The notes under the pieces: model-generated | Databases searched by the model: none | What the model was told of the DNA's origin: nothing | Seen by the model: the letters and a program-made list of their open reading frames with translations, nothing else | In this document: one piece after another, positions 8,692 through 40,853 of the stretch | Position numbering within the stretch: the stretch's first letter is position 1 | How the letters are laid out: each line of letters opens with the position of its first letter | Made by a program: the position numbers and the translations under genes | From: an uncultured Candidatus Saccharibacteria bacterium | GTDB taxonomy: Bacteria; Patescibacteriota; UBA1384; 2-12-FULL-50-11 | Length of the DNA stretch: 46,517 nucleotides | Direction: 5' to 3' | NCBI GenBank assembly: GCA_964358205.1 | Contig: CAYHNZ010000004.1 | Location: 1-46,517 of the forward strand

Positions 8692-8721
8692 CACACTTTC
8701 AGTGTAACTGAAAGTAATTAA

Positions 8722-8854
8722 CAATTTTCAATTTTCAGTTTTCAATTAATGACTCAATTCTCAATATTCAAAAAATGATCAATTAATCATAAAAAAATTG
8801 AAAATTATGACATTGAAAATTCACTGAAAATTGAAAATTCGAAAATTGAAAATT
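8722..8854. repeat. inverted heptamer array (TTTTCAA)n...(TTGAAAA)n
   Basis: Directly visible tandem degenerate 7-mers, first in one orientation then the complement. Confidence 0.85.
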
Positions 8855-8857
8855 GTC

Positions 8858-9343
8858 TCAAGTCATAAAGACTTGAGAAAGGGCGATTGCCACCGCATCG
8901 GCGGCGTCGTCGCCGAGTTTCTTTTTCTCGTCGATATTAAAATAATGACGGACAAAATTTTGGACATCTTTTTTCTTGGCTTTGCCGTTGCCGAGCAAAA
9001 CTTTTTTCAGCCGCAGCGGCGCAATTTCCACAATCTCGATATTGGCCTGGGCCGCCGCCAACAAAACCACTCCCCGGGCCTGACCGACGGCAAAAGCCGT
9101 TTTGGCGTTGTTGGCAAAAAATATCATTTCGATGGCAATCAAATCCGGCTTGATTTCGTTAAAGCGCTTGACCATCTCGTAGTATATAAAGGAAAGCTTC
9201 TGCGGTTCCGGCGAATTCGGCGTCGTCACAATGCAGTCGTAGTGAATCAGCTGCGGCTTGTCGTCGATAATCTCAATCAACCCCAAACCCAATCTCCCCG
9301 ACCCTGGGTCAATCCCCAAAATTCGCTTCCCCCTCATCAGCAT
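8858..9343 (-). CDS. ruvC: Holliday junction resolvase RuvC
   Basis: ILGIDPG, IAIEMIFF, VGQARGVV, GNGKAKK, DDAADAVAIA. Confidence 0.95.
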   Translation of the reverse strand: MLMRGKRILGIDPGSGRLGLGLIEIIDDKPQLIHYDCIVTTPNSPEPQKLSFIYYEMVKRFNEIKPDLIAIEMIFFANNAKTAFAVGQARGVVLLAAAQANIEIVEIAPLRLKKVLLGNGKAKKKDVQNFVRHYFNIDEKKKLGDDAADAVAIALSQVFMT

Positions 9344-37083: not shown

Positions 37084-37614
37084 CTGCAAACCGTACCCAG
37101 TTGGGATCTGTTCTTAGTTATCTTTTTCATCGTTAGCATTGGCTATTCGTTCGTCTTGCAACGCGACAAAGTAGTGGTGACTTTGCTAGCTATTTATGTC
37201 GGCATAGTTATCGCCTCGGTTTTGGGCGGCCCAGCCCAACAATTTTTCCAGGGCGACAAGACGGTTGGTAACCAGTTGTTTATTAAAGCTAACACCTCGC
37301 CATTTACTATTCAGGCCGGACTGTTTTTCTTGACGACCGTTTTGGTTTCGATTCGGTCAGGAATAGGTAATCGCGGCTCGTCTGGTGGCGGTAAGCTGTC
37401 GGCATTCGAACTAGCTCTGTTTAGTTTTCTTAACTCGGCCCTAATCTTGACGGCGGTTTTCTCGTTTATGGATCCAGCTTCTCGGAGTCAGTTTGCTGAA
37501 AATTCCCGAATTGCTCGGGTCTTCATTAATCGGGAAATGTGGTGGACAGTGGCGCCGCTCATCGCCCTAATCGCCACCGGCGGCTTGGGCAAAGGCCGTT
37601 CGCAGGATTACTAG
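37084..37614 (+). CDS. conserved membrane protein (CvpA-like), probable CTG start
   Basis: AGGAGG at 37070-37075, CTG at 37084 in frame, adding LQTVPSWDLFLVIFFIVSIGYSFV; TTGACA at 37035. Confidence 0.75.
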   Translation: MQTVPSWDLFLVIFFIVSIGYSFVLQRDKVVVTLLAIYVGIVIASVLGGPAQQFFQGDKTVGNQLFIKANTSPFTIQAGLFFLTTVLVSIRSGIGNRGSSGGGKLSAFELALFSFLNSALILTAVFSFMDPASRSQFAENSRIARVFINREMWWTVAPLIALIATGGLGKGRSQDY

Positions 37615-38600: not shown

Positions 38601-38940
38601 TGGTAGGCCTGGCGGGAGTCGAACCCGCCGCACAGTGCTTAACATCCGGCAACAAGTTACCTTGTCCCCGCCAAAGGCGGGTTGTCGGCTGGACTATATC
38701 TTCGCCGCAGCGAAGATACTGACCGCTATCGGTGGGTATATCTTCGCCATTTCAGGCGCATCGCGTGTAGTCTCTGAGGGGAGTTTCTCCTCCGCTTAAA
38801 TCGGAATACTCTTCCCTGCTGATTGTCCTCGTCGTAAAGACGGTGGGAGATCCCAGCATATAGCGATGTTCACTTGATAAGTTTTGTTCCCCATCAAGGC
38901 TCCAAAGAAGGCACCTGCTCTACCGCTGAGCTACAGGCCT
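38601..38940 (-). tRNA. tRNA-Lys(UUU), split by an intron (exons 38940-38908 and 38642-38601)
   Basis: Acceptor AGGCCUG/CAGGCCU-A-CCA, D arm GCUC/GAGC, anticodon stem GGUGC/GCACU, T arm GCGGG-UUCGACU-CCCGC; joined loop CU-UUU-AA; mature length 75 nt. Confidence 0.85.
38643..38907 (-). ncRNA. group I self-splicing intron, 265 nt, no internal ORF
   Basis: P AUGCUGGGA (38851-38859), Q AAUCAGCAGG (38815-38824), R UCAGAGACUACA (38766-38777), S AAGAUAUAGUCC (38691-38702); P3 CAUCGC/GCGAUG; P1 with U34-G wobble; terminal G. Confidence 0.92.
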
Positions 38941-39081: not shown

Positions 39082-39927
39082 ATGAAGCCACGACACCCAT
39101 TTGAGCTTAAAGCAAAAGTCATAAAACGACGGCAAGAAGGAGAATCACTCAAACGGCTGGTTGTTGAATTTGGGTTGCCCAAAAGTACTGTTCAGGGCTG
39201 GATAGCGAATATTCTATTGTCCCAACGCGCCAGAAACCGAATAGACGAACGAGCTAGACAACAAGGGAGAAGTATCCGTAGTAATCGGCGACTAGTCTTG
39301 CCTCCGACCATATATTCGACACCGTTCTCACCCGATTTAGTTAGATTTTTCGCCCATTGTTTATTCGATGGCAGTATTCGTCACGATCAGGCCATCTACT
39401 ACTCTAGTCATTCAACTCTAGCTCAAAAATTCGCCGAGAATGGTCAAATACTGTTTGGCCTGAAACCAAGATGGGGGAGAAACAAGGATGGAGTCTTGCG
39501 AGTCCACTTCTTTTCCAGAAATTTGGCAGAATTCCTACTGGCTCGAAAAGAGATGTTGTTCAAAAACATTGGGAGAATGGAACGAGCCCATCAATTAGAA
39601 TTTCTTAAAGCGTTCTTTAACGACGAGGGATCTGTTACTTTCCGAGCAGAAACTGGCAAGAAGGCAGTCAGGGGCTATCAAAAGAATGTTAAAATCCTTG
39701 AGATCGTCGTTTCTCTGCTCCATGGTTTAGGCATTGATTCAAAACTCGAAAGCTTGAATCACTCGCCCGAAATAGCAATCCGAGGCCGAGAAAACATTAA
39801 AAAATTCGCTCAAGTTATTAACTTTGATGCTGGTGTTTCGTTTCTGGCGACGAGGAAAAATAGCTACTACTCAAAGCCAATTGAAAAACGAGTTGTTTTG
39901 CGACAGCTGTTAGCCTCTTATCGCTAG
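39082..39927 (+). CDS. free-standing LAGLIDADG-family endonuclease with N-terminal HTH
   Basis: HTH GESLKRLVVEFGLPKSTVQGW; two LAGLIDADG-like helices FFAHCLFDGS and FLKAFFNDEGS. Confidence 0.85.
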   Translation: MKPRHPFELKAKVIKRRQEGESLKRLVVEFGLPKSTVQGWIANILLSQRARNRIDERARQQGRSIRSNRRLVLPPTIYSTPFSPDLVRFFAHCLFDGSIRHDQAIYYSSHSTLAQKFAENGQILFGLKPRWGRNKDGVLRVHFFSRNLAEFLLARKEMLFKNIGRMERAHQLEFLKAFFNDEGSVTFRAETGKKAVRGYQKNVKILEIVVSLLHGLGIDSKLESLNHSPEIAIRGRENIKKFAQVINFDAGVSFLATRKNSYYSKPIEKRVVLRQLLASYR

Positions 39928-40853
39928 CTTTTGGGCTTCTGTAAAAAGTTAAATGCGCTGGTGGCGGCGACCGAACCCATGGCGGCGGCGGTAATGTCTT
40001 GTTTAAAATGCCCAAAGAAGTTGGTGGCGTCGCCGGCGGCAAAGACGCCTTCGATATTCGTTTCCATCATATTGTTGACGGCCACGTAGCCGTGTGGGTC
40101 GAGCTTTACTCCTAGCGATTCGACCAGCTCCATCTCCGGCACCGCACCGATTTCGACAAACAGGCCATCAAGTTTCAGCTCCTGGTCGTTCGCAAGTTTG
40201 ACGCCTGTTAAACGGGAGTCACCCAAAATCTCCTTGACTTGGGAGTTTGGCAAGACTGCCACTTTCGTACCAAGATACGGCTTGAGGCGTTCGCCGTTAA
40301 TTGGCTCGGGGTGAAGTCCATCTCCCCGGACGATCATATATATTTTTTCGGCGTACTGGACGGCCAAAAGCGCTCCCTTAACTGAAGCGTCACCGCTGCC
40401 AACAATAGCAATGGTTTTACCTTTATAGAGCGGTCCGTCGCAGGTGGTGCAATAATGGACGCCCTTGCCTTGAGAAAAGTCGTCTTCTTTCGGTAGGTTG
40501 AGCTTGCGCCTGGCGGCACCGTGAGTAAAGATCACTGCTTTAGCGAGGTATTCTTCGCCCGACTCGCCAGTCAACTTAAAGCCTCCGTCTCCGCCAGCTG
40601 GCGGACTAGTAATCTTTTCAATTTTATCGGCAATGACTTTAGCGCCCAGCGCTTCAACCTGTTCCTTGACCTTGATAATTAAATCGTAACCATCGATGGC
40701 TTTGAAACCTGGGTAGTTTTCAATCGTCCAGGCTGTCGAAGTGGCCCCTCCGAGCTCGGCACCGATAACTAATGTCGACAGCTCGTAGCGAGCCGTATAA
40801 AGGGCGGCACTAAGTCCGGCCATCCCAGAACCGATAATTATGACATCTGTCAT
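39924..40853 (-). CDS. trxB: thioredoxin-disulfide reductase
   Basis: IIGSGMAG, IENYPGF, YCTTCDG, VGSGD, GVFAAGD. Confidence 0.9.
   Translation of the reverse strand: MTDVIIIGSGMAGLSAALYTARYELSTLVIGAELGGATSTAWTIENYPGFKAIDGYDLIIKVKEQVEALGAKVIADKIEKITSPPAGGDGGFKLTGESGEEYLAKAVIFTHGAARRKLNLPKEDDFSQGKGVHYCTTCDGPLYKGKTIAIVGSGDASVKGALLAVQYAEKIYMIVRGDGLHPEPINGERLKPYLGTKVAVLPNSQVKEILGDSRLTGVKLANDQELKLDGLFVEIGAVPEMELVESLGVKLDPHGYVAVNNMMETNIEGVFAAGDATNFFGHFKQDITAAAMGSVAATSAFNFLQKPKS
40590..40605. repeat. intragenic 16-bp palindrome (copy 3) in trxB
   Basis: TCCGCCAGCTGGCGGA read as S-PPAGG-D. Confidence 0.9.

What the first reader, a model, noticed from the sequence alone, without database searches (positions are those of the whole stretch)
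38601..38940. Group I intron inside the anticodon of tRNA-Lys(UUU), position 34/35
Seen: two perfect tRNA halves are separated by 265 nt carrying the group I P/Q/R/S consensus elements. The only junction that obeys the group I rule (exon ends in U, intron ends in G) and restores a 7-nt loop gives CU-U^UU-AA. P1 (CUUC/GGAG) places a U-G wobble exactly at U34. A73 and the lack of A20 fit Lys rather than Arg. Established, from recall: bacterial tRNA group I introns are known mainly in Leu(UAA), fMet, Arg(CCU) and Ile(CAU), and recently Asn/Asp. Inference: Lys(UUU) is an unusual host, standard annotation would probably miss this tRNA, and if it is the only UUU tRNA then decoding AAA depends on self-splicing.
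Basis: partly seen in the sequence, partly recalled or inferred. Interest (0 to 1): 0.85.

Follow-up and report, generated by a model that had tools for sequence, protein, structure and literature searches.

The report
Self-splicing intron splits lysine tRNA gene
The only gene for the lysine tRNA that reads AAA in this tiny groundwater bacterium is interrupted inside its anticodon by a group I ribozyme intron, a real but not unique arrangement that ordinary annotation overlooks.

Summary
Confirmed, on the minus strand. Window 38940..38601 holds a tRNA split by a 265-nt group I intron (38907..38643). Rfam RF00028 scores it 39.7 bits, below the 50-bit cut-off. Default ARAGORN and Rfam at gathering find nothing.

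The junction is CU-U^UU-AA, giving tRNA-Lys(UUU). A relative (G017) carries an uninterrupted, syntenic tRNA-Lys(UUU) identical to exon 1 plus exon 2. All eight intron-bearing homologues keep U-1, omega-G, a U34-G wobble in P1 and a P10 pairing. Of 57 modelled pairs, 98.9% of cells pair and 19 pairs show compensatory change.

No other Lys(UUU) gene was found in this 94%-complete, 0.86-Mb genome, where AAA is the commoner lysine codon.

The site is not unique. I found it in 8 of 162 genomes of the same class, in one further genome labelled Saccharibacteria, and in two Anaerolineae. One Anaerolineae copy carries a PD-(D/E)XK endonuclease gene.

A 2020 preprint already raised the split-tRNA types from 4 to 21, but its table is an image I could not read.

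Splicing itself is untested: no RNA run was listed. I rate it a new member of a known kind, of moderate interest.

The parts
38908..38940 (-). tRNA-Lys(UUU) exon 1 (33 nt): acceptor 5' strand (A1), D arm, anticodon-stem 5' strand, then C32 U33 U34
   Evidence: It is 100% identical to the 5' part of the uninterrupted G017 gene.
38643..38907 (-). Group I intron, 265 nt, from C+1 to omega-G (38643)
   Evidence: RF00028 scores 39.7 bits. The helices are supported by eight homologues.
38900..38910 (-). P1: C32 U33 U34 C+1 (38910..38907) pairs with the internal guide GGAG (38903..38900), with a U34-G wobble at the 5' splice site. Guide G38903, the UUU loop (38906..38904) and C+1 can also pair with exon 2 (UUAAG) as P10.
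   Evidence: 8 of 8 homologues keep the three exon pairs. In 7 of 8 the +1 pair is C-G or U-A. P10 has 3-6 pairs.
38873..38898 (-). P2 hairpin (9 pairs)
   Evidence: 9 pairs fold in all 8 homologues although the sequences differ.
38759..38868 (-). Core: P3 (38868..38863 with 38764..38759), P4 (38858..38854 with 38821..38817), P5 (38848..38846 with 38828..38826), P6 (38816..38814 with 38780..38778), and the P7 5' strand GACUA (38772..38768)
   Evidence: P3 and P6 show changes on both sides. P4 and P7 never vary.
38692..38758 (-). P8 (CGCC 38758..38755 with GGCG 38706..38703, or with the first copy at 38748..38745), J8/7 AAGAUA (38702..38697), and the P7 3' strand UAGUC (38696..38692)
38707..38748 (-). 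42-nt insertion specific to this genome within P8/J8-7. It has a 12-nt direct repeat and an inverted 9-mer, and is absent from the seven other homologues.
   Evidence: It is present with 0 differences in contigs of three runs, and in a variant strain from another study.
38646..38688 (-). P9 three-way junction: P9 (CCGAC/GCCGG, with one A-C mismatch), the P9a hairpin, and the P9b hairpin with a GUAA loop
   Evidence: All five P9b pairs show changes on both sides.
38601..38642 (-). tRNA-Lys(UUU) exon 2 (42 nt): U35 U36 A37 A38, anticodon-stem 3' strand, variable loop, T arm, acceptor 3' strand, A73, CCA
   Evidence: Its first 40 nt are identical to the G017 gene.

Best explanation
This is the organism's single tRNA-Lys(UUU) gene, interrupted between wobble U34 and U35 by a compact 265-nt group I intron.

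**Proposed mechanism (inferred from group I chemistry)**
1. The precursor folds so that C32-U33-U34 and the first intron base pair with the internal guide GGAG (P1). The U34-G wobble marks the 5' splice site.
2. A free guanosine bound at P7 attacks after U34.
3. The terminal G (window 38643) then takes the same site.
4. The guide's 5' part holds exon 2 (UUAAG) as P10.
5. The exons are ligated, restoring the loop CUUUUAA.

**Consequence.** AAA is the commoner lysine codon and no second Lys(UUU) gene was found. AAA decoding should therefore depend on this splicing.

**Origin.** The intron belongs to a family that sits at the same site in other CPR bacteria and in Anaerolineae. One Anaerolineae copy carries a homing-endonuclease gene, so the intron probably arrived by homing and has since lost that gene.

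**Shown:** anatomy, junction, conservation, and sole copy in the assembly. **Inferred:** catalysis and in-vivo splicing.
For: **Intron identity**
- RF00028 matches the full model, E 1.4e-8.
- On eight homologues, 57 pairs (tRNA stems plus P3-P9b) pair in 98.9% of cells, against 33.6-45.5% for slid controls. Nineteen pairs change on both sides, and 0 of 500 shuffles reach this.
- P1, P2 and P10 are kept in 8 of 8, with U-1 and omega-G in 8 of 8.

**Junction and host**
- G017 has an uninterrupted tRNA-Lys(UUU) equal to exon 1 plus exon 2.
- Its flanking genes are homologous to those of the window, at 65% and 75% amino-acid identity.
- G040 and G118 also allow only the UUU junction under the U/G rule.

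**Necessity**
- Default ARAGORN finds 40 tRNAs with Lys(CUU) only.
- No other CUUUUAA stem-loop lies in a tRNA context.
- AAA runs at 37.4 and AAG at 22.4 per 1000 codons, in 371 crude ORFs of at least 250 aa.

**Family and mobility**
- The site is occupied in 8 of 162 class genomes, plus L052, L057 and L075.
- The ORF in the L075 intron matches PF11645, E 4.7e-20.
Against: - No RNA evidence exists. No RNA run was listed, so splicing and the ligated junction are untested.
- The RF00028 score is below Rfam's gathering score here, and in 8 of the 9 homologue loci tested.
- This genome alone carries a 42-nt insertion in P8/J8-7. In the unconstrained fold its inverted 9-mer pairs with the second, functional copy of GCGAAGAUA, which could slow or block folding.
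- P9 has an A-C mismatch in the three genus members.
- P1 is only 4 pairs closed by a 3-nt loop.
- The assembly is 94% complete, so a second Lys(UUU) gene on unassembled DNA is not excluded.
- Body identity to the genome's own Lys(CUU) is 51 of 73. That is no higher than to several other tRNAs, so the tRNA body does not itself argue for Lys.
Confidence: 0.85

Rival explanations
1. The split gene is tRNA-Asn(GUU). The intron would lie between 33 and 34, as ARAGORN calls it, or in front of position 32 (C-1/omega-G, loop AUGUUAA).
For: - ARAGORN -i labels it Asn(GUU).
- Default ARAGORN finds no Asn(GUU) gene in the genome.
- The junction in front of position 32 keeps omega-G. Introns with C at -1 are reported in 10.1101/2020.01.27.920355 (whole text read).
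Against: - The 33/34 junction makes the intron end in U.
- The uninterrupted orthologue reads CUUUUAA.
- P1 puts the wobble G opposite U34 in 8 of 8 homologues.
- The discriminator is A73, not G73. That G73 marks Asn is recalled, not tested.
- Contig C7 carries a separate split tRNA with U1-A72 and G73. It reads GUU when spliced at 35/36, and its exon boundaries are those where BLAST matches in relatives begin or end.
Confidence: 0.03
2. The split gene is tRNA-Arg(UCU), with the junction at 35/36 or 36/37. The classical Arg(CCU) and Ile(CAU) introns sit after position 36.
For: The 5' flank reads CUUCU, so a UCU anticodon can be assembled. The classical introns' position is named 'Arg.5Ug, Ile2.5Ug' in 10.1101/2020.01.27.920355.
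Against: - Either junction makes the intron end in U, not G.
- An uninterrupted Arg(UCU) gene exists on C16.
- The orthologue is Lys(UUU).
- Position 20 is U, not A (read; the A20 rule for Arg is recalled).
Confidence: 0.01
3. The intron copy in this genome is crippled by its private 42-nt insertion, or needs a protein helper. The gene would then be a pseudogene or would be spliced poorly, and AAA would be read in some other way.
For: - The insertion is unique to this genome among the 8 homologues.
- The unconstrained fold sequesters the second GCGAAGAUA copy.
- The score is below the Rfam cut-off.
Against: - The duplication leaves one complete copy of the P8 3' strand and J8/7 next to P7, so the core can still form.
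- The same insertion persists in contigs from three runs of one study (two samples) and, with changes, in a strain from a second study.
- No other Lys(UUU) gene was found, while AAA is 3.7% of codons.
- Both exons are identical to a relative's intact gene, which argues against decay.
Confidence: 0.08

Closest known systems
Cyanobacterial and plastid tRNA-Leu(UAA) group I intron ('Leu.3Ug' in 10.1101/2020.01.27.920355)
   Same: The intron sits in the same place in the anticodon loop: after wobble U34, CUU/intron/..., with U-1 and omega-G. It is small, has no ORF and lies in an essential tRNA.
   Different: The host is tRNA-Lys(UUU) rather than Leu(UAA). The lineage is CPR/Patescibacteria and Anaerolineae rather than cyanobacteria. 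I made no sequence comparison with a Leu intron, so relatedness beyond the shared fold is untested.
Azoarcus tRNA-Ile(CAU) and Agrobacterium tRNA-Arg(CCU) IC3 introns
   Same: These are compact bacterial tRNA group I introns of about 200-250 nt. Like this one, they have P2, a simple P5 and no P5abc (their architecture is recalled).
   Different: They sit after position 36 ('5Ug'), not at 34/35. Subgroup IC3 membership of the present intron was not tested. Its L2 is an 8-10-nt A-rich loop, not a tetraloop.
Synechocystis tRNA-fMet intron with its PD-(D/E)XK homing endonuclease (PDB 2OST; the name I-Ssp6803I is recalled)
   Same: The Anaerolineae member of this Lys intron family (L075) encodes a 147-aa PF11645 PD-(D/E)XK protein. 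Its only PDB match is 2OST.
   Different: The PDB match is weak (E 0.0098). The window's own intron has no ORF. The host tRNA and insertion site differ.
Group I introns of CPR rRNA genes (cited in PMC11809585 and PMC8172020, passages read)
   Same: The core of the Lys intron is 74-88% identical over 62-78 nt to introns that sit in rRNA-like flanks in G004, G005 and G098. The same genome has two introns in its 23S gene.
   Different: Those sit in rRNA and are followed by long sequence that I took, by eye only, for homing-endonuclease genes. The rRNA context of the G004, G005 and G098 copies was also judged by eye from conserved flanks, not tested.
The 17 new split-tRNA types of Williams 2020 (bioRxiv 10.1101/2020.01.27.920355)
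   Same: The same kind of object, found the same way (RF00028 hit inside an ARAGORN split call, with the U-1/omega-G rule). Metagenomic 'unnamed phyla' had 0.49 such genes per genome.
   Different: Whether Lys at position 3 is among the 21 types is not visible to me: Table 1 and Fig. 3 are images and the supplements are closed.

Membership tests
Group I intron | P1 with a U-G wobble at the 5' splice site | tested here: met
   U34 pairs with the guide G in 8 of 8 homologues. The neighbouring +1 pair changes on both sides.
Group I intron | Terminal guanosine (omega-G) before the 3' splice site | tested here: met
   G at window 38643. Found in 8 of 8 homologues, and also in L052 and L075.
Group I intron | Conserved core P3-P8 and P4-P6, with the P3/P7 pseudoknot | tested here: met
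   P3, P4, P6, P7 and P8 pair in 100% of cells, P5 in 91.7% and P9 in 92.5%. P4 and P7 never vary, so they carry no covariation evidence.
Group I intron | Score at or above the Rfam RF00028 gathering score (50 bits) | tested here: not met
   39.7 bits here. Only 1 of 9 homologue loci reaches it (L011, 59.3 bits). The preprint 10.1101/2020.01.27.920355 notes that none of the Rfam seed sequences is bacterial, and it uses 18-20 bits.
Group I intron | Guanosine-dependent self-splicing | not testable with these tools
   Needs in vitro transcription and splicing.
Subgroup IC3 (classical bacterial tRNA introns) | Subgroup-specific peripheral elements and sequence signatures | not tested
   No subgroup models were on hand. 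The compact architecture is compatible with IC3.
tRNA-Lys(UUU) | Cloverleaf with a 7-nt loop CUUUUAA after exon ligation | tested here: met
   The exons equal the uninterrupted G017 gene, which ARAGORN calls tRNA-Lys(UUU).
tRNA-Lys(UUU) | Discriminator A73 (recalled as the bacterial Lys rule) | tested here: inconclusive
   A73 in the window, G002, G004 and G017, but U73 in G027, G040, G062, G070 and G118.
tRNA-Lys(UUU) | Charging by lysyl-tRNA synthetase | not testable with these tools
   Biochemical.

The most novel reading that the evidence does not exclude
The Lys(UUU) 34/35 intron may be a host-site type not yet described in print.

- It would be one mobile family shared between CPR bacteria and Anaerolineae. 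An endonuclease-bearing form survives in Anaerolineae, and the family has close kin among CPR rRNA introns.
- In this 0.86-Mb genome the only genes found for Lys(UUU), Asn(GUU) and Phe(GAA) are all split by group I introns. About 12% of codons (AAA, AAU, AAC, UUU, UUC) would then be read by ribozyme-matured tRNAs.
- That would tie translation capacity to guanosine- and Mg-dependent RNA catalysis.
Probability: 0.3. Interest if true: 0.55.

Novelty: new member of a known kind. Interest (0 to 1): 0.4.

Why it matters
- **Annotation.** Default tRNA finders and Rfam at its cut-off leave this genome apparently without tRNAs for AAA, AAU/AAC and UUU/UUC. That could be misread as gene loss or recoding in a reduced CPR genome. 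Recognising the introns restores a complete decoding set.
- **Biology.** It shows how far self-splicing introns have entered single-copy essential RNA genes in ultra-small bacteria. This 0.86-Mb genome has six RF00028 matches.
- **Evolution.** The Lys intron family offers a natural series for studying homing, transfer between phyla and tolerance of insertions in the ribozyme core. The series runs from an empty site, through ORF-less and ORF-bearing forms, to a form with a private P8 insertion.

Tried and rejected
- **Default scans.** ARAGORN and Rfam at gathering found nothing in the window. The feature appears only with ARAGORN -i or with the E-value threshold.
- **cmscan's P1** was rejected. 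By covariation it is P2.
- **ARAGORN -i on the genome** listed 18 'intron' calls. I kept only the 3 that coincide with RF00028 hits and did not examine the other 15.
- **tRNA body similarity** as a test of Lys identity: 51 of 73 to the genome's Lys(CUU), no better than to Met, Ile, Thr or Arg. Not informative.
- **Promoter/terminator scan**: nothing upstream of the gene on the minus strand, and counts were at the level of shuffles.
- **RNA evidence.** No RNA holder was listed. Laid contigs show no joint across the intron.
- **BLAST hits in G005 and G015** to the 3' end of the query were fetched. They turned out to be tmRNA 3' ends, not tRNA-Lys.
- **Genus mates.** The Lys gene was not found by BLAST in G001, G003 and G005 (86-93% complete). 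I draw no conclusion from this.
- **The 30-nt unique part of the insertion** has no other copy in the genome.
- **Literature.** Searches found no explicit bacterial tRNA-Lys(UUU) group I intron. PMC5733544 (passages) reports a 'group I intron' in cyanobacterial tRNA-Lys(CUU), among introns it gives as 22-49 nt long. That is too short to be a group I ribozyme, so I set it aside. PMC13060386 and PMC13578239 (passages) were irrelevant.
- **Not visible.** Table 1 and Fig. 3 of 10.1101/2020.01.27.920355 are images and its supplements are closed. Either may list this type.

Full report
**What is there**

Read on the minus strand, window 38940..38601 is a tRNA gene in two pieces.
- Exon 1 (38940..38908, 33 nt) carries the acceptor 5' strand, the D arm, the anticodon-stem 5' strand GGUGC, and then CUU.
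- Exon 2 (38642..38601, 42 nt) starts UUAA. It continues with the stem 3' strand GCACU, a 5-nt variable loop, the T arm, the acceptor 3' strand, A73 and an encoded CCA.
- The 265 nt between them match Rfam's group I intron model over its whole length, at 39.7 bits with E 1.4e-8 on the 741 nt searched.
- That score is below the 50-bit gathering score, so Rfam at gathering reports nothing. Default ARAGORN finds no tRNA in the whole window.

Only the strand was left unsaid.

**Which tRNA and which junction**

The loop can be rebuilt in eight ways (read).
- Only CUU + UUAA puts a U before the intron and a G at its end. This gives the loop CUUUUAA and anticodon UUU.
- ARAGORN -i picks CU + GUUAA (Asn), which makes the intron end in U.
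- The Arg(UCU) junctions also end in U.
- A junction in front of position 32 would give C-1/G.

The decisive evidence is comparative.
- In a genome of the same family but another genus (G017), BLAST matches query positions 1-33 and 299-338 at 100%, back to back.
- The gene there is an uninterrupted tRNA-Lys(UUU) and equals exon 1 plus the first 40 nt of exon 2.
- Its neighbours are homologues of the window's ORFs 39924-40853 and 37156-37614, at 65% and 75% identity. It is therefore the orthologous empty site.
- The genome already has Arg(UCU) on C16.
- It also has a separate split tRNA on C7 with U1-A72 and G73, which reads GUU when spliced at 35/36.

**The ribozyme**

I found intron-bearing homologues in G002 and G004 (same genus), and in G027, G040, G062, G070 and G118 (other families of the class). 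I aligned them as A1.
- All eight have U-1 and omega-G.
- All eight pair C32-G, U33-A and U34-G(wobble) with a guide RGAG followed by CC.
- The next pair is C-G in four, U-A in three, and unpaired in one.
- The guide's 5' side pairs with exon 2 (UUAAG) over 3-6 positions, a P10 that independently fixes the 3' splice site.
- P2 folds as 9 pairs in all eight although the sequences differ.
- For 57 further pairs (tRNA stems, P3, P4, P5, P6, P7, P8, P9, P9b), 98.9% of cells form standard pairs, against 33.6-45.5% when partners are slid by 1-3 columns.
- Nineteen pairs change on both sides, and 0 of 500 shuffles reach that. The eight sequences are related, and three are from one genus, so the counts are not independent events.
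- P4 and P7 never vary, so they say nothing either way.
- P9 has an A-C mismatch in the three genus members.

Subgroup was not tested. The architecture is compact: P2, a simple P5, and a P9 three-way junction with a GNRA-type loop.

**Is the gene needed?**

- The assembly is 862,613 bases in 43 contigs, 94% complete.
- Default ARAGORN finds 40 tRNAs and one tmRNA. These include Lys(CUU) but no Lys(UUU), Asn(GUU) or Phe(GAA).
- A scan for CUUUUAA closed by a 5-pair stem found one other site, and it has no tRNA context.
- In 371 crude ORFs of at least 250 aa, AAA is 37.4 and AAG 22.4 per 1000 codons.

The inference that AAA decoding depends on splicing is therefore reasonable. It is limited by the incomplete assembly and by the lack of any RNA data: no RNA run was listed.

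**A private oddity**

- This genome's intron has 42 extra nt (38707-38748) that are absent from the other seven.
- The extra piece repeats the 12-mer GGCGAAGAUAUA (the P8 3' strand plus J8/7). It also holds an inverted copy of nine of those letters.
- One full copy remains next to P7, so the core can form.
- In the unconstrained fold, however, the inverted 9-mer pairs with that functional copy.
- The insertion is not an assembly error. Contigs from runs X1, X2 and X3 cover it with 0 differences, and a variant strain from another study (X5) also has it, with four changes inside.
- Its origin is unexplained, and its unique 30 nt occur nowhere else in the genome.

**How common is this?**

- A BLAST search of all 162 genomes held for the class found the intron in 10. 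In 8 of these it sits in tRNA-Lys(UUU).
- In G005 and G098, and in a second locus of G004, a 62-78-nt stretch of 74-88% identity lies in introns whose flanks look like 16S or 23S rRNA. That context was judged by eye.
- A pattern built on exon 1 plus the guide sequence, scanned over one genome for each of 185,579 species, gave 46 stretches.
- Ten of the 46 are intron-split tRNA-Lys genes. The other 36 were uninterrupted tRNAs or unrelated sequence, by inspection.
- Seven of the ten are identical to the class genomes already found. Their record titles read Candidatus Berkelbacteria, Patescibacteria group and Candidatus Saccharibacteria.
- Three are new: one further genome labelled Saccharibacteria (L052) and two Anaerolineae (L057, cut by a contig end, and L075).
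- L075 has the same exon junction and core, but an intron of roughly 610 nt (ARAGORN's figure). A 147-aa ORF lies between the P6 strands and matches PF11645, a PD-(D/E)XK endonuclease, at E 4.7e-20. Its only PDB match is 2OST, at a weak E 0.0098.

The site is therefore occupied in at least 11 species-level genomes of two phyla. That fits a homing intron that has spread and then lost its endonuclease.

**Literature**

- Williams 2020 (10.1101/2020.01.27.920355, whole text read) names four classical types: Leu.3Ug, Arg.5Ug, fMet.2Ug and Ile2.5Ug. It raises the number to 21 and finds 0.49 split tRNAs per genome in metagenomic unnamed phyla. The table and figure listing the types are images, and the supplements are closed.
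- Lui et al. 2021 (PMC8172020, passages) state that some CPR tRNAs have group I introns and are hard to detect.
- The tRNAscan-SE 2.0 paper (PMC8450103, passages) says the program is not designed for such introns.
- Nine searches found no explicit mention of a bacterial tRNA-Lys(UUU) group I intron.
- The 'Lys' case in PMC5733544 concerns one of a set of inserts of 22-49 nt, in tRNA-Lys(CUU), and cannot be a group I ribozyme.

**Verdict**

The intron sits at 34/35 of the only detected tRNA-Lys(UUU) gene, with a conserved and covarying P1, P10 and core.
- It is a new member of a known kind, not a new kind. The kind, its prevalence in CPR genomes and the method of finding it are all in print, and the same site recurs in public genomes.
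- Still open: actual splicing, the effect of the 42-nt insertion, and whether this host type has already been tabulated.

Noticed in passing
G000:C7:25917-26269 (-), locus L002/L094: A second split tRNA in the same genome has a 280-nt group I intron (RF00028 45.1 bits). With U1-A72 and G73 it reads Asn(GUU) if spliced at 35/36 (U-1, omega-G). ARAGORN calls it Thr(UGU). Intron-bearing homologues occur in several relatives; exon matches stop at query 34 and start at query 315.
   Followed up: partly
G000:C29:8683-8977 (-), locus L001/L102: A third split tRNA is Phe(GAA), with a 222-nt group I intron at 33/34 (RF00028 48.5 bits). It is conserved with the intron in G002, G003, G040 and others, and uninterrupted in G006, G007, G014, G015 and G016.
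   Followed up: partly
G000:C32:8245-8571 and 8715-9029 (-); G000:C26:640-828 (+): Three more RF00028 matches. The first C32 match lies inside, and the second overlaps the edge of, the Rfam match to the 23S 3' part (model 2048-2912). The C26 match lies about 460 nt upstream of tRNA-Ile(GAU), and its context is not confirmed. That makes six group I matches in a 0.86-Mb genome.
   Followed up: partly
window 38707-38748 (-): A 42-nt insertion in P8/J8-7 is private to this genome's intron. It has a 12-nt direct repeat and an inverted 9-mer. It is real in independent contigs, and its origin is unexplained (a template-switch duplication or a small inserted element).
   Followed up: partly
L034 (G004:C30:345-416), L013 (G005:C2:82227-82289), L044 (G098:C35:911-988): Introns in rRNA-like flanks share 74-88% identity with the P4-P6-P7 part of the Lys intron. 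The genus-specific P6 extension of the Lys intron is nearly the same as in the G004 23S-like intron. This suggests exchange between rRNA and tRNA introns.
   Followed up: no
L011, L012, L040, L042, L043 (tRNA 3' ends): The Lys(UUU) genes of the other families have G1-C72 and U73, whereas the window's genus and G017 have A1-U72 and A73. Both discriminator and first pair are unusual for one isoacceptor within a class.
   Followed up: no
G000:C7:35427-35500 (-) and G000:C16:5125-5510 (-): ARAGORN calls a tRNA-Ile(UAU) and a tmRNA with tag ANVMSKVKATVANAFGSFVAQPVFA. Several tRNAs (Pro UGG, Leu UAG and others) are not found in the assembly.
   Followed up: no
window 38908-38940, runs X1 and X2 (loose ends at 38908): Short, deep contigs join a near-identical exon 1 directly to a UUAAGC... 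continuation. These are uninterrupted Lys(UUU) genes of other, more abundant organisms in the same groundwater samples.
   Followed up: no
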